A stretch of DNA of 64,000 bases from Magnetococcales bacterium (GTDB taxonomy: Bacteria; Pseudomonadota; Magnetococcia; Magnetococcales; JADGAQ01): positions 4,791 through 68,790 of the forward strand of contig JADGAQ010000002.1 in assembly GCA_015231925.1 (NCBI GenBank), in the 5' to 3' direction. Each line of letters opens with the position of its first letter. Positions within the stretch are counted from its first letter, which is position 1. Positions 1,692 through 27,552 of the stretch are shown here, piece by piece. Made by a program: the position numbers and the translations under genes. The notes under the pieces were generated by a model. The model had not been told where the DNA came from. It ran no database searches and saw only the letters and a program-made list of their open reading frames with translations.

Positions 1692-1855
1692 ATTATGTTG
1701 CGTTGCAAAAAATCCCCGAATCGCAAACAACAAGAAAAGGCTCGGCGACACGCCGGGCACTGCGGGCGATGCAGAAGAAACTGAAGGGTTTGTTCGCCCC
1801 TTTGGTCCGTTTTTGACCTGAATCACTGAATGCCAACGAGGAAAGGAATGAAACA

Positions 1856-3130
1856 ATGAGCGGGCAGGTCACGGAGTTGAAAACGCCGTTGCTGGATCAA
1901 TTGGAATCCGGCGATTGGCCCAGTTTTGTGACGGATTTGAAGGCGTGGTCGAAAGTCAAGCCCCAGGTGGCCCAACTGCTGAACCAGTTGAACGAATCCT
2001 ACGAGAATCGCTGGAACTACTGGACCGGAACCGTGCTGAACGTTCCCGGTTACGGCGGCGGGGTCATCGCCCGTCTCTCCGAGAAGGCGGACAAGTATCC
2101 CGATATCGCCCAGTTCCATACCATCCGCATCATCGAGCCGCCGGGCTGGGTATACAATACCAAGTCCCTGCGCAATCTGGCGGATACCAGCTCCAAGTAC
2201 GGCGCGGGCATCCTGCAGTTGCACGGCATGACCGGCGACGTGCTGTTGCTGGGCTTCGACAACGAGAACACCTACAAGGCCGCGGAAGCCCTGATGAGCG
2301 ACGGCTGGGATCTGGGCGGCTCCGGCGGCGCCCTGCGCACCCTGCAGTGCTGCGTGGGTCAGGCCCGTTGCGAAATGGCCTGCTACGACACCATGCGCAC
2401 CACCAAGTTCCTGACGGATCACTACATCGATTTCCTGCATCGTCCGGAATTCGTCTACAAGTTCAAGTTCAAGCTCTCCGGATGCCCGAACGACTGCGCC
2501 AACGCCATGATGCGCTGCGACATGCCCATCATCGGCACCTGGCGCGGCCCGATGCAGGTCGATCAGGCGGAAGTCAAAGCCTTCATCGAAAAGAAGGGCG
2601 TGGAGTACGTCATCGACAACGTGCTGACCCGCTGCCCGACCCGCTGCATGTCCCTGCGCAACGGCGAAATGGTCATCGAGCACGAGAACTGCGTGCGCTG
2701 CATGCACTGCATCAACGTGATGCACAAGGCGCTGAAGCCGGGCAAGGATCGTGGCGTCACCATCCTCGTGGGCGGCAAGCGCACCCTGAAGATCGGCGAC
2801 ACCATGAGCACCATGATCGTGCCCTTCATGAAGCTGGAGACGGAAGAGGATTACGAGAAGCTGGTCGATTTCGTGGATCGTTGCTGGGAGTTCTGGAACG
2901 ACAACGGCATGGATCACGAGCGTATCGGCGAGTTCATCTATCGCGTCGGTCTGGGCACCTTCCTGGAAGGCATCGGGGAGAAGCCGGACGCCCGCATGGT
3001 GACCCGTCCCCGCACCAGCCCCTACATCAAGTTCGAGGAGCTGGCTCCGCGTCGTTTGGACGGCGAGGAGAAGGGACGCATCACGCCGGTCTGGAATCGC
3101 GAACCGGAATTCACCGAAGCGGCCTCCTGA
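1856..3130 (+). CDS. dsrA: Dissimilatory sulfite reductase alpha subunit DsrA
   Basis: 424 aa. Has the siroheme/[4Fe-4S] Cys clusters (CCVGQARCEMAC; SGCPNDCANA) and the ferredoxin insert (CPTRC ... CVRCMHCINV). RBS aggaaaggaa lies upstream of the ATG. Confidence 0.93.
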   Translation: MSGQVTELKTPLLDQLESGDWPSFVTDLKAWSKVKPQVAQLLNQLNESYENRWNYWTGTVLNVPGYGGGVIARLSEKADKYPDIAQFHTIRIIEPPGWVYNTKSLRNLADTSSKYGAGILQLHGMTGDVLLLGFDNENTYKAAEALMSDGWDLGGSGGALRTLQCCVGQARCEMACYDTMRTTKFLTDHYIDFLHRPEFVYKFKFKLSGCPNDCANAMMRCDMPIIGTWRGPMQVDQAEVKAFIEKKGVEYVIDNVLTRCPTRCMSLRNGEMVIEHENCVRCMHCINVMHKALKPGKDRGVTILVGGKRTLKIGDTMSTMIVPFMKLETEEDYEKLVDFVDRCWEFWNDNGMDHERIGEFIYRVGLGTFLEGIGEKPDARMVTRPRTSPYIKFEELAPRRLDGEEKGRITPVWNREPEFTEAAS

Positions 3131-3205
3131 CACGGACCATGACGCCATCCCGATCTTCGGGATGGATGGAATTCGACCTCTACGTTTCTCCAAAGGAAGC
3201 GCGAC

Positions 3206-4279
3206 ATGAGTGAACAGAAAATGGGTCCCCGCAACCAGGGGGCTCCCGACTATACGCAGCACCTGCATCCCCTGATGACCAAGAACTACGGCAAGTGGTC
3301 CTACCACGAGCGGCTCCGGCCCGGCGTGCTGGTCCATGTCGCCGAGAACGGCGACAAGCTCTTCACGGTGCGGGCCGGTTCCCCCCGTACCATGAGCGCC
3401 GCCACGGTCCACAAAATCTGCGACATCGCCGACAAGTACTGTGACGGTTTCCTGCGTTTCACCACCCGCACCAACGTGGAATTCCTCCTGGGCAAGGAGT
3501 CGGATATCCCCGCCCTGATCGCGGACGTGGAAAAGACCCTGGGCTTCCCCATCGGCGGCACCGGTCCTTCGATCTCCAACATCGCCCACACCCAGGGTTG
3601 GCTGCACTGCAACCTGCCCGGCACCGACGCCGCCGGCGCGGTCAAGGCCATGATGGACGAACTGATCGACGAGTTCACCCACGAGCGCCTGCCCAACCGC
3701 GTGCGCCTCTCCACCTCCTGCTGCCAGATCAACTGCGCCAGCCATGCGGACATCTCCGTGATCGTCCAGCATCACCATCCGCCTCGCATCAACCACAACA
3801 ACATGCAGATCTGCGAACTGCCGAAAGTGGTGGCCATCTGCCCGGCGGCGGCCATTCGTCCGGCCGTGGTCAACGGCAAGGAGTCGGTGGAAGTGGTGGA
3901 TGAGAAGTGCATGTACTGCGGCGCCTGCCACGGCCAGTGCCCCAGCATGGAAATCCGCGACGCCGAAACCGACTCCCTCTCCATCTGGATCGGCGGCAAG
4001 ACGGCCAACACCCGCGGCGGCCCCACCTTCATGAAGCTCGCGGTCTGGGGTCTGCCCAACAGACCCCCCCGCTGGCCCGAAGTGGGCACTGCGGTGCGCA
4101 CCATCATCGAGGCCTACAAGTCCTCCGCCAAACCCTGGGAACGGGTCGGCGAATGGGTCGAGCGCATCGGCTGGCAGCGTTTCTTCGAGATGACCGGCTT
4201 CCCCTTCACCAAGTATCACATTGATGACAGCCCGGAAGCCTTCACCACCTTCAACCGCTCCACCCACGTTCGTTTGTAG
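3206..4279 (+). CDS. dsrB: Dissimilatory sulfite reductase beta subunit DsrB
   Basis: 357 aa. Motifs HTQGWLHCN and CCQINCASH, plus ferredoxin insert CMYCGACHGQCP. Starts 75 bp after dsrA. Confidence 0.93.
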   Translation: MSEQKMGPRNQGAPDYTQHLHPLMTKNYGKWSYHERLRPGVLVHVAENGDKLFTVRAGSPRTMSAATVHKICDIADKYCDGFLRFTTRTNVEFLLGKESDIPALIADVEKTLGFPIGGTGPSISNIAHTQGWLHCNLPGTDAAGAVKAMMDELIDEFTHERLPNRVRLSTSCCQINCASHADISVIVQHHHPPRINHNNMQICELPKVVAICPAAAIRPAVVNGKESVEVVDEKCMYCGACHGQCPSMEIRDAETDSLSIWIGGKTANTRGGPTFMKLAVWGLPNRPPRWPEVGTAVRTIIEAYKSSAKPWERVGEWVERIGWQRFFEMTGFPFTKYHIDDSPEAFTTFNRSTHVRL

Positions 4280-4285
4280 CGGGTG

Positions 4286-4364
4286 TATCCCCGGGTTGGC
4301 CGGGGATATCGACATCCCTGGCCAACTTCGGATCAAGCGCCGCGAGGAGTTCTCTTCGCGGCGC
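4286..4364 (+). other. Two GC-rich hairpins in the dsrB-dsrL spacer
   Basis: TATCCCCGG-gttgg-CCGGGGATA (4286-4308) and AGCGCCGCGA-ggagttctct-TCGCGGCGCT (4335-4364). Neither is followed by a T-run. Confidence 0.5.
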
Positions 4365-6786: not shown

Positions 6787-6996
6787 CGGTCCCGCCAGCA
6801 CCTTCCAAACAGCCTAAATAAATTCAAAAAAGACCACATCACCACTTGCCGATTACATCATCCTTCGCTACAAAGAGAATCAACCGGAACGGAGCCGTCA
6901 CGCTCCATGACAAGAAGAGAGTCGGTTCCTCTTCATAAACTATTTGCTTTGTCCAATTCCCATATCCATATGCCCTTTTCCCGGAGTCTCTCCAAC

Positions 6997-7464
6997 ATGT
7001 CTTTGGAGCTCATCAAACGCACCGCAGAACTGGTTACCGCCTTCGTCACCCGTAACGAAATGGCCGCCAAGGAGATCAAACCCCTGCTGGAAGAGGTGTA
7101 CAATACCCTTTCCGGCTTTGCCGCCGAAACAAGCAGGCAAACATCCGGTAAAATACCCGCAGGCGCCATCCTGAAAACGCATGAAATCCCCTCTTCCGCC
7201 CCCACCAATGTTCCCGTCTTCGACGATGCCGCAGACAAGGAAACCGTGAGATGCCTGGTCTGCTCCAAAAAATTCCGCACCCTTAAGAGACATCTCATTG
7301 CAAAACACGGAATAACCCAGGATCAATATCGTAAACAATACGGTCTTAAAGCTAAGGATTTAATCGCTCCAGGATACTCCGCAATGCGGGCCAATATGGC
7401 CAAAGAACATAATTTAGGGGGTAATTTGCGTCATTCAAAGAGTGATCGTGTGTCAGAAGAGTAA
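6997..7464 (+). CDS. mucR: MucR/Ros family zinc-finger transcriptional regulator
   Basis: C-terminal Ros/MucR signature VRCLVCSKKFRTLKRHLIAKHGITQDQYRKQYGL. The N-terminus MSLELIKRTAELVTAFV is typical of the family. ATG 6997 (155 aa) is preferred over the track start at 6907. Confidence 0.85.
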   Translation: MSLELIKRTAELVTAFVTRNEMAAKEIKPLLEEVYNTLSGFAAETSRQTSGKIPAGAILKTHEIPSSAPTNVPVFDDAADKETVRCLVCSKKFRTLKRHLIAKHGITQDQYRKQYGLKAKDLIAPGYSAMRANMAKEHNLGGNLRHSKSDRVSEE

Positions 7465-7471
7465 TTCCATT

Positions 7472-7659
7472 GTAACTATTCAGACCCCTGAACGGTGCAG
7501 CATGATTGTGTCAACGGCGAAAGGAAAAGTCCCAGGGGTGCCCCCTGGATCCCATGGGGTCGGAAGTCAACAGCAAACGGAAGAGTCCCAGGGCGCTGCC
7601 CTGGACCCGTCGAGGGGGAGGGATAATCCCCGCCGCCCCCCATATATCCGAACAGTTAA
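7472..7659. repeat. GC-rich MITE-like element (family D), copy with a duplicated inner module
   Basis: Termini GTAACTATTCAGA ... CCGAACAGTTAA. Inner modules GTCCCAGGG-n-CCCTGGA and GGGATAATCCCC. Related to the copies at 11224, 36302, 37330, 42251, 42488 and 62345. Confidence 0.7.
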
Positions 7660-7830
7660 TATTTTTTCATTTCAAACTACTAAAGAAATTTAAATTAACA
7701 AATTAAAACAAGAGCGGACAATTATCGGAAACATTGAACTTAAACTGTCGCCCCGGTAAAGCCGAAGGTTTGTCAGCCTTCACTTTACTTTATTAGATTT
7801 CATATATCTCAAATCTTAGCGGAGTGGAAG

Positions 7831-8547
7831 ATGACTAACAGGAAGATATGGACTCTTTTATCCTTGTTGACCGTGCTATTCGGTGTATCCGGATGTGCAA
7901 CGCTTCTTCCTTTACCGGATGAAATGGCCAGCGTCTTGTTGGACGAGAAGGTCGAAAAGGTATTGGATAGATTTTGCCCCATCTCCGCCGACCCGAAGAA
8001 CGTAACCTTCGATGACCGGGTTATTCGTTCCTACGCCGTCTTGGCAGCTGTCGTTGGACACGGATATCGGACGCTTGAGAATTACGGCTTCTCGAAAGAG
8101 GACTCAAAGTTCTTTGCTGAAAAGATCGTGAGCAAAATAAAACCATCGCTTGAGCTGATCAAAAAGATGGATGATGAAAAATCAGCTTACTTTTTTCTTC
8201 CACACGGCGATGTCGTTGTGGAATTAAGCAAAGTGGCCTTGGCATCGATCGAACCCTCCATAAAGATCGGCAAGAAACCGGCCGATCTATTGCTCTCTTC
8301 AAATCGGGAGCAAGCGGCAGGATTGCTCATTCAAATCCTGGAGGACAAGCTCTATTTCGACGCCTTCCACAATAGTTGCTACTGCTATGCAAACACTGGA
8401 AAAAAAGCCGAGACAATACCCATGACCTGCCCCACAACAGCGACGGACATGAAGGCCAAATTCAAAGAGCGCATCACGGATCGCTGCGAGAAGCTAAAAG
8501 GTTTCTTTGATAATAATAGTACTAATTATGAGTGCGAGGTAAAGTAA
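7831..8547 (+). CDS. Cys-rich lipoprotein of unknown function
   Basis: Signal peptide with lipobox (LLTVLFGVSGC). No family recognised. Visibly lower GC than neighbouring genes. Ends 31 bp upstream of the lipase gene. Confidence 0.6.
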   Translation: MTNRKIWTLLSLLTVLFGVSGCATLLPLPDEMASVLLDEKVEKVLDRFCPISADPKNVTFDDRVIRSYAVLAAVVGHGYRTLENYGFSKEDSKFFAEKIVSKIKPSLELIKKMDDEKSAYFFLPHGDVVVELSKVALASIEPSIKIGKKPADLLLSSNREQAAGLLIQILEDKLYFDAFHNSCYCYANTGKKAETIPMTCPTTATDMKAKFKERITDRCEKLKGFFDNNSTNYECEVK

Positions 8548-8578
8548 ATCATCCATACTCTAAATACAGGGGGAGTAT

Positions 8579-11194
8579 ATGACCTGGGGATATGCCATCG
8601 AAGAGGAACAGAAAAAGCTCCGTAGCGAGGGCTACCTCTCTGGTGAACCGATAGGACTGGCTCTTTCGGGCGGAGGCATTCGCAGTGCCACCTTCAACCT
8701 GGGCCTGATTCAGGCACTGGCCAAAAAGAGGGTACTCACCTCTTTTTCTTACCTCTCCACCGTTTCGGGCGGCGGCTATATCGGCTCCTGGTTGATGACC
8801 TGGGCCAAGCAGTCGCCCAAGGGCATGGAGACCGTTCAGACCGCGCTGTCTTCAGCCAATGCCGAATCTGGAACCGAAGCAAAACCCGTAGCTTGGCTGA
8901 GGACCTACAGCAACTACCTCACCCCACGCAAAGGTTTGTTGACCCTGGATACTCTGACCGGAATCACCTACCAGTTTCGCAACGTTTTCCTGTCAAGTCT
9001 GGTGTTGACTCTGTTCGTTTCAGGCGTTTTATCCATCCTGGCTGGACTGGTCAATGGCGTAAAATATCTTCCGACTTCGTCCTTCCAAATTATCTTCCTG
9101 TTTTTTGGCTCGGTAGCAGCCTTTCTTTTTGGCAGAGCCCTGGCCCGATTGATCGACGACAACACCAACTCCGATTCCATCTCAACAAAACCAACCGCTT
9201 TCGGAATGGTCTTGGCGATACTGGCGTTCGGCTTCTGTAAGGATTCGACCCCCCTCTCCCCTCTGCATTTCGGTTTATCCGTCGGCACGGTTTACTTCCT
9301 CGGCGTAAGTATCGGTTCTTGGATGTTCCTGTCCAGAAAGAGCCTATGGGATCACTTGTTTCTTCGCTCTCTTTTTGCCGGATTTCCCATTTTCGCCATC
9401 GCCGGTTTCCTCCTCCCCGTCCTCCTGCAGCAAGGATCCTGGAACTCCTCCTGGGAACTGGCGGGATTTGGGGTGCCACTCGCCTGCCTGCTGTTCGCCC
9501 TGGCGGCCTCCGTTCACCTCGGTGTGATTGGTCGCCTTCTGCCCGACGAGGCCTATTTCTGGATCAGCCGCCTCGCGGGACGGCTGCTGCAATACTCCCT
9601 GATCTGGAGCCTGCCCTTCCTGATATTTCTGCTTGTACTACCGCTGATCGACTGGACGGAACACTTTGCCCTCGCCGGCGGCACCAGTGTCGTCTACGCC
9701 TTTCTGGTCCGATGGCTGGCAGCGGGCTCCAGCACCGGCGGAGAAGGCGCCAAGGCTGGAAAAGGCTGGAAAAATCAGTTGATCGAAGGCCTTGTCGCCA
9801 CCGCTCCCTATCTGTTGATGCTGCTGCTGGTTGGTTTCATGGCCTTGGGGGTGCGTTACGGTTTTGTTGAAAGGTTCGCGGACACCAAAGCCTCCGCCAA
9901 CACGCCCCCCTCCTGCACCCCGTGCCAGGTGGTCGTGGTAAACACCGGCGCCCAACCCGACTGCCAGACACAAAAATGCCTCGTCAGCGAGGGAAAACAT
10001 TCCCCCTACTATGGTGAAATGTATCAGGAAAATCTTAAACTGCTGGAAAAAATTTCGCCCTGGTGGGGCATAGCCATCGGGTTGGTTTTGGCTGAAATAT
10101 CGCTATTATTGTCGCACCTGATAGATGCCAATCTTTTTTCGCTGCACGGCTTCTACCGCAACCGCTTGACCAACGCCTATCTTGGCGCCAGCAATCCGAA
10201 TCGTCGTCACCCGCCTTCCGAAACCGGCGTCGACCCTGGGGACTCCCCCAAACTGGCCGATTTGGTAGGCATCCGCCCCTATTTTCTGATCAACACCACC
10301 TTGAATCTGACGGGCCGGAAAAACGACCTGGCTTGGCAAAATCGTCAGGGAGCCGCCTTTCTCTTTTCCCCGCTCTATTGCGGTTTCAGCGCAGGCGTCA
10401 CCAATGCATACAAACCCACAAAGGACTACGGCAAGGACGCCTCTCTACCTCTCAAGCTCGACTTGGCCATGACCATCTCCGGAGCCGCCGCCAGCCCTCT
10501 GGAGGGATTTCATACCAAACCGGGTCTGTCGATGCTTCTGGCCCTCCTGGGCGCACGCCTGGGATGGTGGTTGACGAATCCGGCAAAAGATGAATGGAAT
10601 AAAACTCCACCAAAAGCCACCCTCCTGACAACTCTCTACAAGGAAATGACGGCTCAAGCCGATGCCTCTCAACCGCTAGTCAACCTGAGCGACGGCGGCC
10701 ACTTCGAGAATCTCGGCATTTACGAACTGGTGCGACGACGTTGTACCGTCATCCTGGCCAGCGATGCCGGAGCGGATCCTGACTACGTTTTCGACGACTT
10801 GGGCAACGCTATCCACAAGATTCGTACCGATTTCGGCGTCGAAATCGACATCGATCCACTGCCCATCCGGCCTGCCGCATCATCAAATTCCACTTCGGGA
10901 ACCGTAGTGGGCAGTGACGAAAATTTTGTGGAAGGAACAATCCGTTATAGTACAAGTCCCCTGCCCTGGTTCAAGAACCTGAAAGACGGGAAACTGATCT
11001 ATCTCAAGGCCTCGCTTCCGAGGCCGTTCGAGAAAAAGGCTGCCGATGTGCTGTACTACGCAGCCACCCATCCCTTGTTTCCGCAGGAACCCACCTCCGA
11101 CCAATGGTTCAGTGAGGAGCAGTTCGAGGCCTATCGGAAACTGGGAGAATTGCTTGGGGAGTCTCTCCCCGACAACATGTTCAGTCCCTCATAG
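8579..11194 (+). CDS. Membrane-embedded cPLA2/patatin-like phospholipase
   Basis: Oxyanion motif LSGGGIRSA and nucleophile motif YLSTVSGGGYIGSW at the N-terminus. The Asp-dyad motif LSDGGHFENLGIYELVRRRCTVILASDAG lies about 630 aa later. About 9-10 hydrophobic helices sit between them (aa ~130-430). Confidence 0.7.
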   Translation: MTWGYAIEEEQKKLRSEGYLSGEPIGLALSGGGIRSATFNLGLIQALAKKRVLTSFSYLSTVSGGGYIGSWLMTWAKQSPKGMETVQTALSSANAESGTEAKPVAWLRTYSNYLTPRKGLLTLDTLTGITYQFRNVFLSSLVLTLFVSGVLSILAGLVNGVKYLPTSSFQIIFLFFGSVAAFLFGRALARLIDDNTNSDSISTKPTAFGMVLAILAFGFCKDSTPLSPLHFGLSVGTVYFLGVSIGSWMFLSRKSLWDHLFLRSLFAGFPIFAIAGFLLPVLLQQGSWNSSWELAGFGVPLACLLFALAASVHLGVIGRLLPDEAYFWISRLAGRLLQYSLIWSLPFLIFLLVLPLIDWTEHFALAGGTSVVYAFLVRWLAAGSSTGGEGAKAGKGWKNQLIEGLVATAPYLLMLLLVGFMALGVRYGFVERFADTKASANTPPSCTPCQVVVVNTGAQPDCQTQKCLVSEGKHSPYYGEMYQENLKLLEKISPWWGIAIGLVLAEISLLLSHLIDANLFSLHGFYRNRLTNAYLGASNPNRRHPPSETGVDPGDSPKLADLVGIRPYFLINTTLNLTGRKNDLAWQNRQGAAFLFSPLYCGFSAGVTNAYKPTKDYGKDASLPLKLDLAMTISGAAASPLEGFHTKPGLSMLLALLGARLGWWLTNPAKDEWNKTPPKATLLTTLYKEMTAQADASQPLVNLSDGGHFENLGIYELVRRRCTVILASDAGADPDYVFDDLGNAIHKIRTDFGVEIDIDPLPIRPAASSNSTSGTVVGSDENFVEGTIRYSTSPLPWFKNLKDGKLIYLKASLPRPFEKKAADVLYYAATHPLFPQEPTSDQWFSEEQFEAYRKLGELLGESLPDNMFSPS

Positions 11195-11223
11195 CGCGGC
11201 ATAGCCGCAACCAAACTGCAATG

Positions 11224-11452
11224 GTAACTGTTCAGGATCCTGCACAGCGGGACATGACCGTATCAACAGCGAAAGAATAAGTCCCAGGGGTACCCCCTGG
11301 ACCCCGGGAGGTCATAACGTCAACGGCAAAAGGAAGAGTCCCAGGGCGCTGTCCTGGATCCGTCGGGGGGGATAATCCCCCCCGAACCCCCGTATATCTG
11401 AATAGTTACTTCCTTTTTGATATTTAAAGGATAACATATTGAAAGTTAAAGG
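11224..11452. repeat. Family-D MITE-like element fused to a partial TIR60 unit
   Basis: GTAACTGTTCAGG ... CCCCGTATATCTGAATAGTTAC followed by ttcctttttgatatttaaaggataacatattgaaagttaaagg. Confidence 0.7.
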
Positions 11453-18440: not shown

Positions 18441-18789
18441 GGTTTCGGGAAGATAACCGTTCCGCTTGACGAAGGTTTGGGGGGATTATCCCCCTTGACA
18501 TAGGGTGTTGTTTGCCGGTGTTTATGATATATATTATTTTTGATTCCGCATCAATCGCCTTGTTGCGGGATAACTCTTTCGGTCAAAGATTATGCCATCA
18601 TTTTGAGTCACATTATTTATCAGCAGGATCAAGAGCCGCCTGTTCTTTCATCCGGCGCCGTATTTCAATTGAAATGGCTGTTTTGATGGTATACAACGCC
18701 TTATCAGGAGCCTGCGGCGCGGGTTCCGGCGGCTGAACAGAATAATTATCCAATCGATTTCGTTCCTCCCACTATTGGGAAGGAGTGCC

Positions 18790-21312
18790 ATGAATATTCA
18801 GAATGCCAACCTCTTGGAAGCGTCGAGCCGCGTGGCTTTCGCGGCTCTGGTGCATGATCTGGGAAAGTTCGCCGAACGCGCCGAGATGGCCGTTGCCAAG
18901 GCGGAAATAGATCAGAGGAAAAAAGATTATTGTCCAAAAGGTTCTTCAAAATACACCCACGCCCACGCCGCCTATTCCGCCCTGGCCCTACAGGCTCTCA
19001 AGGGGATGCTGCCCGACTTCCAATCGGGAGACATGTTCCCTTTCGACACGTCGAACGAAACCCTGATCGCCGCTGCCGCCGGGCATCACGAGCCCAAAAC
19101 GTCCCTGCAACGCATCGTGGCCATCGCCGACCGCCTGGCCTCGGGATTCGAGCGCAGCAACTTCACAGAATACGAGCGACTCCAGGAAGGAGATGCCCCC
19201 AACGGTGTGGGACTGCATCGCGCCCGGCAATGGCCGATGCTGGAGACCATTTATCCGGATCAGCAGAATTTGAAGGAACCCAAACAACGTTTCCCCCTGA
19301 AGGCCCTGGCTCCGGAAACCCTTTTCCCCGGAGGGTGGAATCCGGGAACTCCAGACGAGGCCAAGGCCGAGTACCGGGAGCTGTGGGACGCTTTCATCTC
19401 CAAGTTGGAAACCCTCTCCCATCGCAACCGTCTACCCTTGTGGCTCGACCATTTCGACAGCCTGTTCCTCACCTTCACCCACGCCATCCCCTCGGCCACG
19501 GTGAGTCGTGAGAATGGACGTTTCACCAAAATCCCCACCGATGTCTCGCTTTACGACCACTCCAAGGCGGTGGCGGCTTTGGCGGTGGCGCTGTGGCGTT
19601 ATCACCTGGAAAACGGCACGGTGGAGGAGGTCTTTTCCAAGTCCAAATGGAACCACTGGGACGAACACGACGTAGCGGAATTTCTGCTGATTCAGGGTGA
19701 CTTCTCCGGCATTCAGGCCTTCATTTTCGACAGCGCGGAATCCACCTCCAAGGCGGCCAAACGGTTGCGGGGTCGCTCCTTCATGGTTTCGCTGCTGACG
19801 GAGCTGGCGGCGTTGAAGGTGCTGGAGACCCTGGAGCTGCCGTCCACCAGCCAGATCATCAACGCGGCGGGCCGGTTTCTCATCGTGGCTCCCAATCGGG
19901 AGACGGTGCAGCAAAAACTGGAAGGGGTGCGTCGCGAGCTGGACGAGTGGTTTTTGCAGCAAACCTTCGGGCAAAGCGGCATCGCTCTGGTGACCACGGA
20001 GGCCAGCCGGCAGGATTTCCATAAAGAGAGGTTCGCCGCCCTGATGGATCGGTTGTTTGTCGATGCCCAGCGCCGTAAACGGCAGCGGTTTGGCCTGTGC
20101 GGCGAGACACCTCCTGCACCGATCTTCGAAGCGGTGGACTATCCCAACGGGCCCTGCGTCGTGGATGGACACAAACCCGGAGAGATCCTGGCGGAGGGCA
20201 AATACCGCTGTCGGCTGTGCAACGATCAGATCACGGCAGGTGATCAACTGGTCAAGCAGAATCTCCTGTTGATCGGATACACCGTTCCGCAAGAATTACC
20301 CGCCCTGGAAGCCAGCTATTTCGGCTATCGGGTTGCTTTCGCCAGAGAAGAGAAAGGTGGGGATTGGCTGCGGGTGTGGGATTTCGCCCTGCCCGAAGCG
20401 GATGGGAAGACTCCCTTGTGGAACGGCTACGCCCGGCGGGCCATCAATGCCCATGTGCCCCGGAATGAGTCGGGCGAACTCCTCGATTTCGAAACGATTG
20501 CCAAAACGGCCATTGTGCCGGATGAATCGGGCAATCCTCGCGGTGTGGCCGCTCTGGGCATTCTCAAAGGCGATGTGGACAATCTGGGAGCGATTTTCCG
20601 CAAGGGGCTGGAGCATCCCACCTTTGCCCGCATGGCGGGTTTGAGCCGACAGGTCAATGCCTTTTTCGCCATCTGGCTGCCCTGGTGGTGTTCCAAAGAG
20701 TTTCCCAATACCTACACGGTCTTCGCCGGGGGGGATGACTTCTTTCTCATCGGCCCCTGGCTTGAACAGATTCATCTGGCGCGGGAGATTTGCAAAGCCT
20801 TGAGGCTATACGGCGGGAAGAATCCTAAGGTGCATCTTTCCGCCGGTCTGGTGATGACCAAACCGGACCTGCCGGTTCCCGCTTTGGACAGCCTTGCGGA
20901 GGAGGCGTTACAACACGCCAAGAACCATGCTGACAAAACCAAGAACGCCATCACCTGCTGGAACCGCACCGTCTCCTGGCAGGTTTTCGAGGAGATGATG
21001 CAGGCGGAAGAAGAGCTGACAACCCTGACGGCTCTGCTGGCCGAAGAGAAGGTGGAGATGAGTTCCGGCTATCTCTACTCCCTGTTGGATCTTTGCGACA
21101 GGGCGGAAAGCCCCCGCCCGGAAGATCAGCTCTGGCGCTCCTGGTTCGTCTACCGCACCTGGCGATTCGTGGTGGATCGCCTGCCGGAAGAAAAGCGGGA
21201 GCCATATTACAAGGATGAGTTTGTCGCCAAGATCGGCAAGCGGCTCCTCTGCCGCAGCGGCGATTACAAAATAGCCCTGTTCACCCATCTTTATCAGCGA
21301 CGGGAGGCGTGA
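18790..21312 (+). CDS. cas10: Type III CRISPR Cas10/Csm1
   Basis: HD domain (ALVHDLGKF, AAGHHE, IADRLASG), first palm domain (LLIQGDFSGIQAFIF), Zn-binding Cys cluster (CVVDGH...CRLC) and cyclase motif FAGGDDFFLIGPW. ATG 18790 follows GGAAGGAG; the track start at 18775 is TTG. Confidence 0.92.
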   Translation: MNIQNANLLEASSRVAFAALVHDLGKFAERAEMAVAKAEIDQRKKDYCPKGSSKYTHAHAAYSALALQALKGMLPDFQSGDMFPFDTSNETLIAAAAGHHEPKTSLQRIVAIADRLASGFERSNFTEYERLQEGDAPNGVGLHRARQWPMLETIYPDQQNLKEPKQRFPLKALAPETLFPGGWNPGTPDEAKAEYRELWDAFISKLETLSHRNRLPLWLDHFDSLFLTFTHAIPSATVSRENGRFTKIPTDVSLYDHSKAVAALAVALWRYHLENGTVEEVFSKSKWNHWDEHDVAEFLLIQGDFSGIQAFIFDSAESTSKAAKRLRGRSFMVSLLTELAALKVLETLELPSTSQIINAAGRFLIVAPNRETVQQKLEGVRRELDEWFLQQTFGQSGIALVTTEASRQDFHKERFAALMDRLFVDAQRRKRQRFGLCGETPPAPIFEAVDYPNGPCVVDGHKPGEILAEGKYRCRLCNDQITAGDQLVKQNLLLIGYTVPQELPALEASYFGYRVAFAREEKGGDWLRVWDFALPEADGKTPLWNGYARRAINAHVPRNESGELLDFETIAKTAIVPDESGNPRGVAALGILKGDVDNLGAIFRKGLEHPTFARMAGLSRQVNAFFAIWLPWWCSKEFPNTYTVFAGGDDFFLIGPWLEQIHLAREICKALRLYGGKNPKVHLSAGLVMTKPDLPVPALDSLAEEALQHAKNHADKTKNAITCWNRTVSWQVFEEMMQAEEELTTLTALLAEEKVEMSSGYLYSLLDLCDRAESPRPEDQLWRSWFVYRTWRFVVDRLPEEKREPYYKDEFVAKIGKRLLCRSGDYKIALFTHLYQRREA

Positions 21313-21693
21313 GTGAATACTACCGGAATTATTCTGAACAATATTCAGAAAGATTTATTTGATGGGGTCGCCGAGAGGGTAGCCAAGGATCTGGCTGCAA
21401 ATCGGCAATCCAATAAACCTACTCAATTGCGTCGTTTTTATGACGAGATTTGTCAATGGACGGAAAAAGTCGATGGCAAGGACGAGACTTACAAAACATT
21501 AAGCCCATTCATTCATATGCTGAACGCCAAGACAGCCTATGCCTTTGGTCGAAACAAACTGGTTGATGCCAACTTTGTAGAATTGATCCGTTACTGCCTG
21601 AACCAGGTCAATAATGCCGAAACCCTCGGCAATTTCAAACTCTTCATGGAAGCGGTGATGGGATTTTATAAATACGAGCGGCCCGGCAACTGA
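21313..21693 (+). CDS. csm2: Type III-A small subunit Csm2
   Basis: 126 aa, helical. Has the Csm2-like TQLRRFYDEI and NAKTAYAFGR motifs. The GTG start abuts the cas10 stop. Confidence 0.8.
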   Translation: MNTTGIILNNIQKDLFDGVAERVAKDLAANRQSNKPTQLRRFYDEICQWTEKVDGKDETYKTLSPFIHMLNAKTAYAFGRNKLVDANFVELIRYCLNQVNNAETLGNFKLFMEAVMGFYKYERPGN

Positions 21694-21703
21694 GGAACAG
21701 ACC

Positions 21704-22420
21704 ATGAAACTGACCCACATCGACGAAATCTCCGGGCAACTCCTTCTGTGCAGCGGGTTGCATATCGGCAGCGGCAACACCGAAATGCACATCGGCGGTT
21801 CGGACAATCCCGTGATCAAACATCCCCACACCAACCGACCCTACATTCCGGGCAGCAGCCTGAAAGGCAAAATCCGCAGCCTGCTGGAATGGCGTGTTGG
21901 GGGCAAGGCGATACTCGACGGAAAACCGATGAGTTATGGCAAACTTCAACAGCTTCCGGACGATGACCGCCCGGATGCCCTGACCATTCTCAAACTGTTC
22001 GGCAATTCCGCCGGTGAGAAGTTAAAAGATGAAGTGTACCAGGAAATCGGCCTTCCCCGCTTGATCTTTCGGGACTGCATGCTTTCGGATGAATGGGTAA
22101 CATCCGTTAATAACAAAAAGCTTTCTCTGACTGAAACCAAGATGGAAAACACCATCAACCGGGTTAGCGGTGTGGCGGAACACCCCCGCAGCATGGAGCG
22201 GGTTCCGGCGGGAGCGATATTCAATTTTTGCCTGGTGATCCGGCGATTCGGCGAGGAGGAGGAATTGCACGATCTCCTTTTCAAGGGTTTGAAACTGCTG
22301 GAGATGGACAGCCTGGGTGGTTCGGGTTCCCGCGGTTACGGCCGGGTTGAATTCAAACTGCATGCCCCGTGGCAGGAGAAACTCGACAAGACCAACCCCT
22401 GGAGTGACAACGGCAAATGA
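21704..22420 (+). CDS. csm3: RAMP protein Csm3 (Cas7 family)
   Basis: LHIGSG...PYIPGSSLKGKIRSLLEW and C-terminal GGSGSRGYGRV glycine loop. Confidence 0.9.
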   Translation: MKLTHIDEISGQLLLCSGLHIGSGNTEMHIGGSDNPVIKHPHTNRPYIPGSSLKGKIRSLLEWRVGGKAILDGKPMSYGKLQQLPDDDRPDALTILKLFGNSAGEKLKDEVYQEIGLPRLIFRDCMLSDEWVTSVNNKKLSLTETKMENTINRVSGVAEHPRSMERVPAGAIFNFCLVIRRFGEEEELHDLLFKGLKLLEMDSLGGSGSRGYGRVEFKLHAPWQEKLDKTNPWSDNGK

Positions 22421-23322
22421 ACACCCTGCTGATCACCCTGGAGCCCTTGACGGCTTTTGCCACGCCGTTGCACGGGGACACCCTCTTCGGGCAACTCTGC
22501 TGGGCGTTGCGCAATCGTCAGGGCGAAGCCTGGCTGGTGGAGCGGCTGCGGGGATACACCGCCAACGACCCCTTTCTGGTGGTTGGGGATGCGTTTCCCG
22601 AAGGGCACTTTCCCCGTCCCCGAAAACCCTCGAAGGGTTTTCAGAGCAAGGAAAATCGTCAGCAGGTCTGGTTGCCCCGCCGGGAGTGGGGATTGGACTG
22701 TGTGACTGAGGAGGCGATCTGGGGCAAGGACAAAACCCGCATCGAGCGGCCCCAGCCCCACAACAGCATCCATCGCCTGAGCGGAACCACGGGCGAGGGA
22801 GAGCAAGGGTTTGCGCCGTTCGTCACCCGGCAAATCTGGTTTCCCGAAGGAGCCCGCCTGGAGGTGTGGCTGCTTCACGATGCGGATCGCTTGCCGGAGG
22901 AGACGCTGCACACCGCGTTGAGCGATATCGGACAGTTGGGTTTTGGCAAGGAGGCTTCGAGGGGACTCGGCAAATACCGGGTGACTGCCATGCAACCCAC
23001 CCCCCTGCCCCGACAGGAAGGCTGCAACGCCTGGCTGACCCTGGGAAGTTGCGCCCCCCAAGGGTGCGGTTTCGACGCCGCCAACAGTTTTTATGAGCTT
23101 TTCACCCGTTTCGGTCGTCACGGGGATTGGCCGGCGCTGAGCGGACAACCCTTCAAGAAACCGATCCTGATGGCCGGTGCCGGCGCGGTGCTGACCCCCG
23201 CCGTGTGGCGGGATGTCCGCTTCGTCGGGCAGGGTTTGGGTGGCGAGGGCAAGCTGTCGAAGGTCATTGCGGATACCGTGCATCAAGGCTACTGCCCGGT
23301 AGTGGGCATTCGGGTGGATTGA
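22417..23322 (+). CDS. csm4: RAMP protein Csm4 (Cas5 family)
   Basis: The N-terminus LEPLTAFATPLHGDTLFGQLCWAL is typical of Csm4. Has the G-rich motif IGQLGFGKEASRGLGKY. ATGA overlap with csm3. Confidence 0.85.
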   Translation: MNTLLITLEPLTAFATPLHGDTLFGQLCWALRNRQGEAWLVERLRGYTANDPFLVVGDAFPEGHFPRPRKPSKGFQSKENRQQVWLPRREWGLDCVTEEAIWGKDKTRIERPQPHNSIHRLSGTTGEGEQGFAPFVTRQIWFPEGARLEVWLLHDADRLPEETLHTALSDIGQLGFGKEASRGLGKYRVTAMQPTPLPRQEGCNAWLTLGSCAPQGCGFDAANSFYELFTRFGRHGDWPALSGQPFKKPILMAGAGAVLTPAVWRDVRFVGQGLGGEGKLSKVIADTVHQGYCPVVGIRVD

Positions 23323-23335
23323 CGGGAGGGAAAAG

Positions 23336-24508
23336 ATGGCTGAACGATTTTTACAATCCCATCGTCTGGTGATTTCCACCCTTTCACCAGTCCACATCGG
23401 TTGCGGGGAGGATTACGAACCCACCAACTACGTTATTGATGACAACAATAATACGTTGCACTATTTCGAACCAAGCGACCTTTTGACGCTGCCGCAATGG
23501 CCGGAACGGCGTCAAGAATTGCTCAACCTGGTTACCCGACAGGGAGGAAGCCAGGTGGTTCGCGGCATACAGACCTTTTTCCACAAACTGCGCAAGGAAA
23601 TCGCCCCCCTTTCCAGACATCAGGTAAGCGTTTCCCAAGGAATTATGGACTCTTACAAGGAACGTATCGGGCAAGTGGCGCAGCGGGAGTTCGGCAACAA
23701 GGAGACCCTCAACTCTCTGGGAATCCAACGCGGGTATTACCACCCCCACTCCGGTCAACCGATTCTTCCCGGCAGCAGTTTGAAAGGAGCCGTGCGCACG
23801 GCCTTGCTGAATCACGCCCATGGGGGCCAGAAGTTGAAACAGCCTGCTCTGGCGGAGCAACGCACCAATTGGAAAAAGCTCTCCCCGCTTGATGTGACGT
23901 TACGGAATTTTCATGGAGATTTTCACGCCGATCCCCTGCGCCTGATAAAGATTACCGACAGCACCCCATTCCCCACCGAGAAGATCAAACCGCTCATCTG
24001 CTTTGCCGTCAATCGGAGCAAACGGCCCGACGATACGAAAGAGCGGCCCTTTCAAATGAGGGAATGCCTTCCCGGAATGGCCAAAAAGGCTGTAGAGGCC
24101 GAGTTGATTTTGCATGATGTGGGTGCGCTGCGCTCCGAGAAGTTACCGGCCGTGCGTCCGACCATGGAAGAGATTGTGAAACGCTGCAATGACTATTATC
24201 TGCATCGGTTGCAGGAGAGTTTGAAACTGCCGGGTGTAGATAAAGAATGGATCAACAAGATTCAAAGGTCTTTAGATAGAAATATCTGGAGGCTTCAAGA
24301 GGGAGACTCTTTTTTGCTGCGTCTGGGCATGGGCAGCGGGTCCGAAAGCATTACGCTCGATGGAGCAAGACATATTCATCAGCCACAACATAGACAGTGG
24401 GTGGAAAAGCCCTCGACGGTCTGGCTGTTTTCCGAGATGGGCAAGGATGCAAGGGAGGGGCTGTTACCTTTTGGCTGGGTGCTGGTGGCCTGGGATAAAC
24501 GGCCATGA
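23336..24508 (+). CDS. csm5: RAMP protein Csm5 (Cas7 family)
   Basis: STLSPVHIGCGE and ILPGSSLKGAVRTALL motifs. It sits in the csm5 position of the operon. Confidence 0.85.
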   Translation: MAERFLQSHRLVISTLSPVHIGCGEDYEPTNYVIDDNNNTLHYFEPSDLLTLPQWPERRQELLNLVTRQGGSQVVRGIQTFFHKLRKEIAPLSRHQVSVSQGIMDSYKERIGQVAQREFGNKETLNSLGIQRGYYHPHSGQPILPGSSLKGAVRTALLNHAHGGQKLKQPALAEQRTNWKKLSPLDVTLRNFHGDFHADPLRLIKITDSTPFPTEKIKPLICFAVNRSKRPDDTKERPFQMRECLPGMAKKAVEAELILHDVGALRSEKLPAVRPTMEEIVKRCNDYYLHRLQESLKLPGVDKEWINKIQRSLDRNIWRLQEGDSFLLRLGMGSGSESITLDGARHIHQPQHRQWVEKPSTVWLFSEMGKDAREGLLPFGWVLVAWDKRP

Positions 24509-25446
24509 CGATCTATTCCCTTCCCCTGGCGCGATACCGTCTGGAGTGGCGGGTGGAGACACCGTTGCGCTTGCCGGAGTATGCCGGATCAGCGTTGCGG
24601 GGGGTGTTTGGCGCGGCTCTGCGGGGGCTGGCCTGTATCACTCGGGAAAGGGAGTGTCCGGGTTGCGGCCTTTTGCGCACCTGCCCCTATTCCCTGATCT
24701 TCGAAACCCCTGCCCCACTGGTGGCCGAAGGGGAAAAAGGCTTTGCGGTGACACCCAATCCCTACATTATCGAGCCGCCGCCCTGGGGGGTGCGGGAGTA
24801 TGGTGTCGGGGAGGCGTTGGTGTTTCATCTGGTGCTGGTGGGACGGGCGTTGGGCCATTTGCCCCTGCTGATATTGGCCTGGCAACGCGCCCTTGGCCGG
24901 GGTGTCGGGGCGGGAGATGGCAAAGCCGAGTTGCAACAGGTGGTGCTGGAAAGGTCGAACGGCGAAGAGGTGGTTTTTCGGCGGGAGGAAGGGCTGCTGC
25001 GCGACCACGACACGCAGGTTGTCGTGCCATCCTGGCCGGGACAGGAGGCTCTCACTCTGCATCTGCTCACCCCGGTCCGCATTCAGCGCGACGGTTCGCC
25101 TCTCGGTCCGGGACGCCTCACGCCACGGGATCTGCTGGTGGGGTTGATGCGTCGTATCGGTCAGATGGCTCATCTACATGCGGATGTCGACCCGGAGATC
25201 GATTACTCGGAGCTGTCCCGGCAGGCGGGTTTGATTCCGTGTCATGGCAACCTCGCCTGGCGGGACTGGACACGCCGTTCCGCCCGACAGCAGCAAACCA
25301 TGGCCTTGGGCGGTGTCGTCGGTCGATGGACTTTGACGGGTGATCTGCAACCTTTCTGGCCGTTTCTTTATCTGGGGCAGTGGTTGCATGTGGGCAAAAA
25401 TGCCACCTTCGGGTTGGGTGGGTACCAACTTGAAACGCAGGTTTGA
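24505..25446 (+). CDS. cas6: Cas6-family CRISPR endoribonuclease
   Basis: 313 aa. C-terminal G-rich loop HVGKNATFGLGGYQL and N-terminal CPGC...C cluster. ATGA overlap with csm5. It is the last gene before the leader. Confidence 0.75.
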   Translation: MTIYSLPLARYRLEWRVETPLRLPEYAGSALRGVFGAALRGLACITRERECPGCGLLRTCPYSLIFETPAPLVAEGEKGFAVTPNPYIIEPPPWGVREYGVGEALVFHLVLVGRALGHLPLLILAWQRALGRGVGAGDGKAELQQVVLERSNGEEVVFRREEGLLRDHDTQVVVPSWPGQEALTLHLLTPVRIQRDGSPLGPGRLTPRDLLVGLMRRIGQMAHLHADVDPEIDYSELSRQAGLIPCHGNLAWRDWTRRSARQQQTMALGGVVGRWTLTGDLQPFWPFLYLGQWLHVGKNATFGLGGYQLETQV

Positions 25447-25471
25447 TGAATATCGACGAGGATGAGGCGTT

Positions 25472-25679: not shown

Positions 25680-25721
25680 TGGCAGGCAGGGGATTTTTCA
25701 GAAAAATTATTTTTTTATCTT

Positions 25722-25779: not shown

Positions 25780-25786
25780 TTTTCCT

Positions 25787-25815: not shown

Positions 25816-25841
25816 ATCTAGCATCGATGTATCGAGATGTA

Positions 25842-27533: not shown

Positions 27534-27552
27534 CAGAGACGGCTTTATTCTG

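What the first reader, a model, noticed from the sequence alone, without database searches (positions are those of the whole stretch)
7831..11194. Low-GC two-gene islet: a Cys-rich lipoprotein followed by a cPLA2/patatin-like lipase whose catalytic Ser and Asp are separated by a ~10-helix membrane domain
The lipase has the GGGxR oxyanion motif and the SGGG nucleophile motif within its first 70 aa. The DGG catalytic-Asp block appears only near aa 694, after about 300 aa of transmembrane helices and a further soluble region. In canonical patatin/cPLA2 folds the dyad residues are about 150-200 aa apart. The pair is visibly AT-richer than its neighbours, is flanked on both sides by MITE-like repeats (7472-7659, 11224-11452), and sits next to a MucR-type silencer. 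A periplasmic lipoprotein encoded immediately upstream of a phospholipase recalls the Tle/Tli effector-immunity logic. Alternatively the pair could be a membrane-disrupting abortive-infection module. Neither role can be assigned from sequence alone.
Basis: partly seen in the sequence, partly recalled or inferred. Interest (0 to 1): 0.65.

Follow-up and report, generated by a model that had tools for sequence, protein, structure and literature searches.

The report
Membrane-split cPLA2-like lipase with lipoprotein partner
This gene encodes a phospholipase of the patatin/cPLA2 kind whose catalytic domain is cut in two by a ten-helix membrane block; it belongs to a very large bacterial family that I found no published study of, and here it is paired with a fast-evolving periplasmic lipoprotein that probably regulates it.

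Summary
ORFs 7831-8547 (lipobox lipoprotein) and 8579-11194 (871-aa lipase) are real. The lipase has GGGIR (aa 31-35), nucleophile Ser63 and SDGG (Asp705, not ~694). About 390 aa with ten predicted helices separate Ser from Asp.

AlphaFold is confident (pLDDT 82, pTM 0.83). The best solved-structure matches are human cPLA2 alpha and delta. Removing the membrane block in silico restores a Pfam patatin hit.

Loop charge and cysteine parity across 60 relatives place both catalytic halves in the cytoplasm and a variable, probably disulfide-bonded loop in the periplasm. The split is family-wide (Ser-Asp spacing 708 +/- 56 aa in 245 of 246 members). The family has about 6,400 clusters at 50% identity, and eight literature searches found nothing on it.

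Most members stand alone in very varied contexts, so no general two-gene system exists. The lipoprotein does have distant relatives, and all three with readable flanks sit directly upstream of such a lipase.

A T6SS effector-immunity reading is not supported. An abortive-infection role is neither supported nor excluded.

Best reading: an inner-membrane phospholipid deacylase with a cytoplasmic active site, modulated from the periplasm by the lipoprotein. It is a new variant of a known kind.

The parts
6907..7464 (+). Ros/MucR-type zinc-finger regulator gene. It forms the AT-rich left part of the islet (48.4% GC).
   Evidence: PF05443 E = 3.5e-28; GC.
7469..7680 (+). Upstream copy of the MITE-like element. 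It has terminal inverted repeats GTAACTATTCAG...CCGAACAGTTAA and two tandem 56-nt hairpin units.
7831..8547 (+). Lipoprotein gene (238 aa). Signal peptide and lipobox VSG|C22 lie at 7831-7896. The mature part is predicted helical and has 6 Cys.
   Evidence: ORF and sequence. No Pfam, NCBIfam or PADLOC hit. Distant homologues P0248, P0249, P0250 and the L101 ORF. The single-sequence AF2 model is unreliable, pLDDT 43.9.
8579..11194 (+). Membrane-split cPLA2/patatin-like lipase gene (871 aa); identical to a hypothetical protein of a Magnetococcales MAG (HQL56_00470).
8579..8944 (+). N-terminal catalytic half (aa 1-122). It carries the oxyanion motif GGGIR (8669-8683) and nucleophile Ser63 (8765-8767).
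   Evidence: Motifs. These residues are invariant in 60 homologues. In register with cPLA2 delta and VipD. Pfam patatin profile positions 1-80 are matched after splicing.
8945..10123 (+). Membrane block (aa 123-515): ten predicted TM helices, N-in/C-in.
   Evidence: Hydropathy; AF2 helices; positive-inside analysis; no credible solved-structure match.
9854..10060 (+). TM9-TM10 loop (aa 426-494), predicted periplasmic. It has 4 Cys and is hypervariable across the family.
   Evidence: 5% mean identity for aa 438-477. Low pLDDT. Cys count is even in 55 of 60 members.
10124..11191 (+). C-terminal catalytic half (aa 516-871). It carries the catalytic Asp705 in SDGGHFEN (10691-10693) and invariant R720.
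11221..11400 (+). Downstream copy of the MITE-like element: same orientation, same two-unit variant.

Best explanation
The 871-aa protein is an integral inner-membrane acyl hydrolase of the patatin/cPLA2 superfamily.

Its Ser63-Asp705 dyad and GGGIR oxyanion hole lie on two cytoplasmic half-domains. A ten-helix membrane block (aa ~123-515) is inserted about 60 residues after the nucleophile and separates them. Because the helix number is even, both halves emerge on the cytoplasmic side. There they are inferred to pack into one cPLA2-like domain sitting on the inner leaflet, where it would deacylate phospholipids or lysophospholipids. The membrane block is inferred to anchor the enzyme and to gate lipid access.

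The upstream gene encodes a disulfide-bonded periplasmic lipoprotein that travels with this lipase in a few lineages. It cannot reach the active site. It most likely modulates the enzyme across the membrane through the variable, Cys-paired periplasmic loop. This would resemble the way outer-membrane lipoproteins such as RcsF or LpoA/B act on inner-membrane partners.

The pair looks like accessory DNA that was probably acquired horizontally.

Shown: the fold class, motifs, split architecture, topology signals, family size and synteny. Inferred: the assembly of the halves, the substrate, gating by the lipoprotein, and the physiological role. For the role, conditional membrane-lipid turnover is slightly favoured over phage defence.
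For: Fold and motifs:
- The motifs are present, and S63, D705 and R35 are invariant in 60 homologues.
- The AF2 model has pLDDT 81.9 and pTM 0.83.
- Foldseek's top hits are human cPLA2 alpha (1cjy) and cPLA2 delta (5iz5), at probability 1.00 over 402-410 columns. PlpD, VipD, patatin and CapV align over only about 100 columns.
- A family profile aligns in register with cPLA2 delta.
- The intact protein gives no Pfam hit. With the TM block spliced out it passes the patatin gathering score (30.8 vs 27.7 bits).

Split architecture across the family:
- GGGxR-to-SDGG spacing is 708 +/- 56 aa, with 8-10 hydrophobic segments, in 245 of 246 members.

Topology:
- No signal peptide or TM segment precedes the N-terminus, even in the fused forms checked.
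- K+R density is 0.159 in predicted cytoplasmic loops and 0.062 in predicted periplasmic loops. The TM9-TM10 loop has an even Cys count in 55 of 60 members.

Lipoprotein partnership:
- The two genes are 31 nt apart, and no terminator-like site was found on the + strand in that gap.
- The L101 lipoprotein is homologous (shuffle z = 7.6, 0 of 4,000 shuffles reached the score).
- In L102, lipoprotein P0250 is followed after 25 nt by '...IGLAFSGGGIRSATF'.

Accessory status:
- Lower GC.
- The closest relative is only about 45% identical.
- Relatives occur on megaplasmids and in an integrase/toxin-antitoxin element.
Against: - I could not inspect model coordinates. The packing of the two halves and the position of the active site relative to the bilayer are inferred from pTM, helix parity and fold matches only.
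- The nucleophile motif is T-V-S-G-G, without the Gly at position -2.
- Most family members, including several of the closest ones, have no lipoprotein (L007, L008, L009, L104). The partner is therefore dispensable for the enzyme class.
- The lipoprotein family has only 4 database clusters plus the L101 ORF (a near-duplicate of P0248). Those clusters fall into three divergent lineages.
- No activity, substrate or localisation data exist for any member.
Confidence: 0.6

Rival explanations
1. Housekeeping or accessory lipid-remodelling enzyme only. The family removes acyl chains from inner-leaflet phospholipids for turnover or repair, or to supply acyl groups to partner enzymes. The lipoprotein is a minor lineage-specific add-on with no conflict role.
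For: - The family is huge and taxonomically broad.
- Neighbours are mostly metabolic and heterogeneous: 105 Pfam families among 112 neighbours.
- Synteny is stable within some lineages (L013/L014, L002/L003, L005/L006).
- Partners are lipid enzymes: a cytoplasmic class-3 lipase, fused or adjacent; 4HBT thioesterases nearby; and a GNAT-like C-terminal extension in about a third of members.
- The lipase has no PADLOC hit.
- No match in the 50,697 INPHARED phage records and only 1 of 2.9 million IMG/VR viral contigs.
Against: - In this window the gene is compositionally foreign.
- Distribution looks patchy, with paralogues and megaplasmid copies.
- Some copies lie in mobile or defence contexts.
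- An unregulated cytoplasm-facing phospholipase would be dangerous, which argues for tight conditional control.
Confidence: 0.35
2. Abortive-infection or stress-suicide effector. The membrane block, with or without the periplasmic lipoprotein, senses envelope perturbation such as phage entry. It then unleashes the phospholipase on the cell's own inner membrane.
For: - One close homologue is adjacent to a CBASS type III operon.
- Another lies inside an integrase/RelE-Xre/phage-GPA element.
- Another sits next to a KAP NTPase.
- A type III CRISPR-Cas locus lies 7.5 kb away in the window.
- The periplasmic loop is hypervariable and the lipoprotein evolves fast: 19-26% identity between lipoproteins against 43% for the window lipase vs P0005, the lipase of L101.
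- Fusions and neighbours include a second lipase, PG-binding domains and PG amidases.
Against: - The lipase matches no PADLOC model.
- Only a handful of the 112 immediate neighbours hit defence models, and most of those hits are to generic helicase or ATPase models.
- Four housekeeping-type genes separate the lipase from the CRISPR locus.
- No recognisable sensor domain is present.
- No experimental data exist.
Confidence: 0.25
3. T6SS-type (Tle/Tli-like) effector-immunity pair. The lipase is delivered into rival cells, and the lipoprotein protects the producer's periplasm.
For: A lipase gene lies next to a periplasmic lipoprotein gene. One of the 112 family neighbours carries a Tle1-like domain.
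Against: - The lipase is a ten-helix integral membrane protein with no signal peptide and no secretion-associated domain. Its catalytic halves are predicted to be cytoplasmic.
- No Hcp, VgrG, PAAR or other T6SS genes appear among the annotated neighbours in the window.
- Most family members have no adjacent lipoprotein.
Confidence: 0.03
4. The two genes are functionally unrelated. The lipoprotein merely hitch-hiked in the same islet.
For: The first database search found only the protein itself. Most homologous lipases lack it. An unrelated lipoprotein lies upstream in L012.
Against: All three lipoprotein-family loci with readable downstream DNA have the same order and tight spacing (31, 53 and 25 nt), in organisms of very different base composition.
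Confidence: 0.12

Closest known systems
Eukaryotic cytosolic phospholipase A2 (PLA2G4 alpha and delta; PDB 1cjy, 5iz5; Pfam PLA2_B)
   Same: It is the best fold match (probability 1.00). It has the same GGGxR oxyanion motif, an S-G-[SG]-type nucleophile elbow aligned in register, and a Ser-Asp dyad. In both, the dyad is separated by a large insertion; in cPLA2 this is the cap/lid (from my own knowledge).
   Different: There is no C2 domain. PLA2_B scores only 10-15 bits against a 23-bit cut-off. The insertion here is a ten-helix membrane block of about 390 aa, not a soluble cap. The protein is bacterial.
Compact bacterial patatin-like phospholipases (ExoU, VipD, PlpD, CapV, RssA; Pfam PF01734)
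   Same: Same superfamily and catalytic motifs. The N-terminal half matches Pfam patatin and aligns with VipD.
   Different: Those enzymes have a contiguous domain of about 190 aa. They are soluble, secreted or attached to a beta-barrel. Only about 100 columns align structurally. CapV is activated by a cyclic nucleotide, and no such sensor is present here.
Membrane-tethered patatins such as NTE/PNPLA6 and mycobacterial transporter-patatin fusions (from my own knowledge; not tested here)
   Same: A patatin-type hydrolase is held at a membrane by its own TM segments, with the active site on the cytoplasmic side.
   Different: In those proteins the TM segments lie outside an intact catalytic domain. 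Here the membrane block is inserted inside the domain, between the nucleophile and the catalytic acid.
T6SS Tle lipases with Tli lipoprotein immunity
   Same: A lipase gene adjacent to a periplasmic lipoprotein gene.
   Different: Tle proteins are exported soluble effectors that act in the target's periplasm. This lipase is an inner-membrane protein with a cytoplasmic catalytic domain and no T6SS context.
Outer-membrane lipoproteins that signal to inner-membrane partners (RcsF-IgaA, NlpE-CpxA, LpoA/B-PBPs; an analogy from my own knowledge)
   Same: A periplasm-exposed lipoprotein is encoded with, or acts on, a polytopic or bitopic inner-membrane protein.
   Different: There is no sequence relationship, and no interaction has been shown here.

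Membership tests
Patatin/cPLA2 superfamily acyl hydrolase | Oxyanion-hole motif G-G-G-x-[RK] near the N-terminus | tested here: met
   GGGIR at aa 31-35; G31, G32, G33 and R35 are invariant in 60 homologues.
Patatin/cPLA2 superfamily acyl hydrolase | Nucleophile Ser in a G-x-S-x-G-type elbow | tested here: inconclusive
   Ser63 is invariant and aligns with the cPLA2 delta and VipD nucleophiles. However, the motif is T-V-S-G-G, with Thr instead of Gly at position -2.
Patatin/cPLA2 superfamily acyl hydrolase | Catalytic Asp in D-G-[GA] | tested here: met
   S704-D705-G706-G707 are invariant.
Patatin/cPLA2 superfamily acyl hydrolase | Pfam PF01734 match above the gathering score | tested here: inconclusive
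   The intact protein gives no hit at E <= 0.1. With the TM block removed it scores 30.8 bits against a 27.7 cut-off, covering profile positions 1-80 of 191. Most homologues carry PF01734.
Patatin/cPLA2 superfamily acyl hydrolase | The characteristic fold | tested here: met
   Foldseek hits to 1cjy and 5iz5 at probability 1.00, from a model with pLDDT 81.9. Residue-level superposition could not be inspected.
Patatin/cPLA2 superfamily acyl hydrolase | Lipid acyl-hydrolase activity | not testable with these tools
   Needs biochemistry.
cPLA2 proper (PLA2G4 / Pfam PLA2_B) | PLA2_B profile match above cut-off, and an N-terminal C2 domain | tested here: not met
   PLA2_B scores 10.6-14.8 bits against a 23-bit cut-off. 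No C2 or any other Pfam domain was found.
T6SS Tle-Tli effector-immunity pair | An exported effector linked to T6SS genes, acting in the periplasm where the immunity lipoprotein binds it | tested here: not met
   The catalytic halves are predicted to be cytoplasmic. No T6SS genes appear among the window neighbours. The pairing is absent from most of the family.
Known anti-phage defence systems (PADLOC models, including CBASS CapV) | Match to a defence-system protein model | tested here: not met
   The only result is a spurious pAgo hit at E = 0.097.
Bacterial lipoprotein (the upstream gene) | A positively charged n-region, a hydrophobic h-region and a lipobox [LVI][ASTVI][GAS]C | tested here: met
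   MTNRKIWTLLSLLTVLFGVSG|C22. The lipobox Cys is invariant in the 5-sequence alignment.
MITE-like dispersed repeat (the flanking elements) | Short, non-coding, with terminal inverted repeats and several dispersed copies | tested here: met
   Six copies of about 130-185 nt with TIRs GTAACTRTTCAG/CTGAAYAGTTAC. Target-site duplications were not examined.
Ros/MucR regulator (upstream ORF 6907-7464) | Pfam PF05443 match above cut-off | tested here: met
   98.5 bits against a 25.4 cut-off.

The most novel reading that the evidence does not exclude
A very large class of polytopic membrane phospholipases, apparently never studied, in which a ten-helix block is inserted inside the catalytic domain. That block both feeds bilayer lipids to a cPLA2-like active site and transmits a periplasmic signal, here from an outer-membrane lipoprotein. 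The result would be a trans-envelope, signal-gated self-membrane-degrading switch used in defence or stress. The family may also be the prokaryotic stock from which eukaryotic cPLA2 arose.
Probability: 0.2. Interest if true: 0.75.

Novelty: new variant of a known kind. Interest (0 to 1): 0.55.

Why it matters
Patatin/cPLA2 enzymes are normally soluble proteins that dock onto membranes. Here a whole ten-helix membrane domain sits inside the catalytic domain. This occurs in a family of thousands of bacterial lineages that Pfam, NCBIfam and PADLOC do not model beyond the first ~50-100 positions of Pfam's patatin profile. Eight literature searches found nothing on it.

If the topology is right, these enzymes attack the inner leaflet of the cell's own membrane. 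They must therefore be tightly controlled. That makes them candidates either for regulated lipid turnover or for suicide-type defence.

Their closest structural relatives are eukaryotic cPLA2s rather than bacterial patatins. This bears on where the eukaryotic enzymes came from.

The lipoprotein partnership offers a simple two-gene handle for testing trans-envelope regulation.

Tried and rejected
- **Library scans:** Pfam, NCBIfam and PADLOC scans of both intact proteins gave nothing.
- **Lipoprotein as an orphan:** The first word-indexed search of the lipoprotein returned only itself, and I provisionally called it an orphan. A positional comparison in L101 later overturned that.
- **Lipoprotein fold:** The single-sequence AF2 model was too poor to use (pLDDT 43.9), so I ran no fold search on it.
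- **L012 lipoprotein:** It is unrelated to the window's lipoprotein (E = 48).
- **Conserved operon partner:** I looked across 92 loci, and the largest neighbour cluster covers only 8 of them.
- **Defence-island signal:** Pooling 112 neighbours and scanning PADLOC gave only sparse and mostly generic hits.
- **Phage carriage:** 0 of 50,697 phage records and 1 of 2.9 million viral contigs.
- **Islet borders:** No tRNA, no credible Rfam family and no convincing terminator or promoter signal.
- **Second copies in the window:** No Lipase_3 gene and no second patatin.
- **Third shared gene:** The ORFs upstream of the lipoprotein in L101 and L102 are unrelated.
- **Literature:** Eight searches found no description of the architecture.


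Full report

Yes. The window has a 238-aa ORF at 7831-8547 and an 871-aa ORF at 8579-11194, both on the + strand. They are 31 nt apart, and each is preceded by a GGAG-type ribosome-binding site.

The first protein begins MTNRKIWTLLSLLTVLFGVSG|C. That is a canonical lipoprotein signal peptide with a lipobox. It has six further cysteines.

The second protein has GGGIR at aa 31-35 and VSGGG (Ser63).

Hydropathy analysis and the AlphaFold model both show ten helices between aa ~123 and 515, with a 69-aa loop between the last two.

The upstream ORF 6907-7464 is Ros/MucR (E = 3.5e-28).

The composition claim is only partly right:

| Region | GC | GC3 |
|---|---|---|
| MucR | 48.4% | 52% |
| Lipoprotein | 46.3% | 57% |
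| Lipase | 55.5% | 66% |
| Flanking genes | 61-64% | 76-79% |
| Window mean | 58.1% | not computed |

The flanking repeats are real and lie in the same orientation. Aligning all copies shows an element of about 130-185 nt with terminal inverted repeats, so it is MITE-like. The element occurs four more times in the window, against 0.02 matches expected by chance. It is therefore a dispersed genomic repeat and not an islet boundary marker. The two copies that bracket the gene pair uniquely share an internal duplication of the 56-nt hairpin unit.

**2. What is the lipase?**

The intact protein hits nothing in Pfam, NCBIfam or PADLOC. Homology searches nevertheless show a very large family:
- more than 6,500 word-indexed hits;
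- 15,986 representative clusters at 50% identity with E <= 1e-3, of which 6,409 reach E <= 1e-30.

The exact sequence is a 'hypothetical protein' of a Magnetococcales MAG. The nearest relatives are only about 45% identical.

Most homologues carry a precomputed PF01734 (patatin) hit. Where I looked, that hit covers only profile positions 1 to about 52 of 191.

A 60-sequence alignment shows S63, D705, the GGGIR residues and many other positions in the two soluble parts to be invariant. The membrane block is poorly conserved: 22% mean identity, against 47-56% for the soluble parts.

AlphaFold2 with this alignment gives pLDDT 81.9 and pTM 0.83. Foldseek against the PDB behaves as follows:
- Human cPLA2 alpha (1cjy) and cPLA2 delta (5iz5) rank first, at probability 1.00 over 402-410 columns.
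- PlpD, VipD, patatin and CapV match over only about 100 columns.
- The membrane block has no credible match.

A family profile aligns in register with the GGGxR...S-G motif of cPLA2 delta (E = 0.03).

When I removed the membrane block in silico, the window protein passed Pfam's patatin gathering score (30.8 vs 27.7 bits). PLA2_B stayed far below its cut-off.

The split is a family trait. In 245 of 246 members the GGGxR-to-SDGG spacing is 708 +/- 56 aa, with 8-10 hydrophobic segments in between.

**3. Topology**

- None of the members I checked has a signal peptide or TM segment ahead of the N-terminal half. This includes members with N-terminal PG_binding_1 or Lipase_3 modules.
- With ten helices, a cytoplasmic N-terminus implies a cytoplasmic C-terminal half.
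- Across 60 members, loops predicted to be cytoplasmic have a K+R density of 0.159. Loops predicted to be periplasmic have 0.062.
- The long TM9-TM10 loop is hypervariable in length and sequence. It carries an even number of cysteines in 55 of 60 members (0, 2 or 4), which is what periplasmic disulfides would give.

**4. Is the two-gene pairing conserved?**

*Across the whole family: no.*
- In 92 loci from genomes and metagenomes, the upstream gene is heterogeneous. It lies on the opposite strand in about half of the cases and is almost never a lipobox protein.
- The largest neighbour cluster covers 8 of 92 loci.
- The 112 immediate neighbours hit 105 different Pfam families, none more than three times.
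- PADLOC hits among those neighbours are sparse and mostly to generic models.
- Close relatives sit in varied places: next to a CBASS type III operon, inside an integrase/RelE-Xre/phage-GPA element, beside a KAP NTPase, or among ordinary metabolic genes.
- The family is essentially absent from phages. It is common on rhizobial, Methylobacterium, Cupriavidus and Burkholderia megaplasmids, where it is annotated only as patatin-like or hypothetical.

*In a narrow lineage: yes.*
- The lipoprotein first looked like an orphan.
- In L101 (lipase P0005, 43% identical to the window's) the gene directly upstream is a 245-aa lipobox protein, 53 nt from the lipase start. It is colinear with the window lipoprotein.
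- That similarity is statistically sound. The Smith-Waterman score on the mature regions is 72, against 32 +/- 5 for shuffles (z = 7.6), and none of 4,000 shuffles reached it.
- A two-sequence profile then recovered P0248, P0249 and P0250.
- In L102, P0250 is followed after 25 nt by an ORF beginning '...IGLAFSGGGIRSATF', which is the family's N-terminal signature.

All three lipoprotein loci with readable downstream DNA therefore precede such a lipase. Several close lipases nevertheless lack the lipoprotein. The lipoproteins are 19-26% identical to the window's; the two lipases that can be compared in full (window vs P0005 in L101) are 43% identical. They share a few motifs (for example ED(K/A)LY) and conserved cysteines.

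**5. Other partners in the family**

- A cytoplasmic class-3 lipase (no signal peptide, GHSLG nucleophile) lies directly downstream in L101, L104 and L099. It is 28-35% identical to the Lipase_3 modules fused N-terminally in other members. This is a gene-fusion link. The window has no such gene.
- About a third of members carry one type of ~310-aa soluble C-terminal extension with a weak GNAT signature (E = 0.0015, below the Pfam cut-off).
- PG_binding_1 is fused N-terminally in others, and PG amidases recur nearby.
- RoxA-like di-haem cytochrome c genes recur in a few loci.

**6. Mechanism**

*Shown:* a cPLA2-like fold class, a conserved Ser-Asp dyad, a family-wide ten-helix insertion, topology signals that place the catalytic halves in the cytoplasm, and a recurrent upstream periplasmic lipoprotein in one lineage.

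*Inferred:*
- The enzyme deacylates inner-leaflet phospholipids or lysophospholipids.
- The membrane block anchors the enzyme and gates substrate access.
- The lipoprotein cannot touch the active site, so it acts through the periplasmic face. This is analogous to RcsF or LpoA/B acting on inner-membrane partners (my own knowledge).

On the physiological role, conditional lipid turnover or remodelling is slightly favoured because the family partners are lipid enzymes and the contexts are heterogeneous. A stress- or phage-triggered self-lysis role is not excluded. A complete type III CRISPR-Cas locus lies 7.5 kb away in the window, but four housekeeping-type genes separate it from the lipase.

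The Tle/Tli reading fails on topology and context.

**7. Comparison with what is known, and novelty**

- The protein is a member of the patatin/cPLA2 superfamily by motifs and fold.
- It is not a cPLA2 proper: it has no C2 domain and no significant PLA2_B match.
- It is not a known defence effector: it has no PADLOC match.
- Membrane-tethered patatins such as NTE keep their catalytic domain intact (my own knowledge). Here the membrane domain is inserted inside the catalytic domain.
- Eight literature searches found no description of this architecture. The library does not include most subscription-journal papers.

I rate it a new variant of a known kind, of moderate interest.

Noticed in passing
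window 18775-27540: A complete type III CRISPR-Cas locus: Cas10/Csm1 with an HD domain (18775-21312), three RAMP proteins (21704-24508) and Cas6 (24505-25446). A CRISPR array with 20 copies of a 37-nt repeat (CCTTAAGTCATCGCCCCGCTTGATAGGGGATTGAAAC) follows at 26030-27540. It lies 7.5 kb from the lipase, separated by UvrA and three other genes.
   Followed up: partly
window ~36300-36420 (-), ~37300-37440, ~42250-42380, ~42480-42620: Four further copies of the MITE-like element, with terminal inverted repeats GTAACTRTTCAG/CTGAAYAGTTAC and a GC hairpin. All four are the single-unit form. Only the two copies that flank the lipoprotein-lipase pair carry a duplicated 56-nt unit.
   Followed up: partly
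L101 5254-6054; L104 3322-4122; L099 3391-4287; N-termini of P0012, P0014, P0016, P0041: A cytoplasmic class-3 lipase (GHSLG, no signal peptide) is either encoded directly downstream of the membrane-split lipase or fused to its N-terminus. This gene-fusion link points to a two-lipase system in part of the family.
   Followed up: partly
C-termini of 68 family members (e.g. P0238, P0021, P0137): One recurrent soluble C-terminal extension of about 310 aa with no Pfam family. It ends in a GNAT-like RxxGxG segment (Acetyltransf_7, E = 0.0015, below cut-off). This suggests an acyltransferase coupled to the lipase.
   Followed up: partly
N-termini of P0019, P0023, P0028, P0105; neighbours in L012, L036, L039, L043, L098: PG_binding_1 domains are fused N-terminally with no signal peptide, which would place them in the cytoplasm. 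Peptidoglycan amidases or PG-binding proteins recur as neighbours. This link between the lipase family and the cell wall is unexplained.
   Followed up: no
L009 8157-11070; L001; L043; L096 2638-4446: A RoxA-like di-haem cytochrome c (peroxidase-type) gene recurs next to the lipase. In L009 a catalase-related gene follows it. This could be a fatty-acid or lipid oxidation pathway in a minority of loci.
   Followed up: no
L007 3719-8214: A CBASS type III operon lies directly downstream of the closest lipase homologue P0003: a Cap17-like/PNP_UDP_1 effector, a SMODS cyclase, a bacterial HORMA protein and an AAA+ TRIP13-like ATPase.
   Followed up: no
window 30843-35778 and 37537-39690: A cluster of cyclic-nucleotide and hemerythrin signalling proteins: cNMP-binding plus metallo-beta-lactamase plus hemerythrin; cNMP-binding plus PAS plus adenylate/guanylate cyclase plus hemerythrin; and PAS-GAF-GGDEF.
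   Followed up: no
window 1823-4336 (-): An 837-aa ORF with no Pfam hit. Long + strand ORFs overlap it (1856-3130 and 3206-4279), so which strand codes is unresolved.
   Followed up: no
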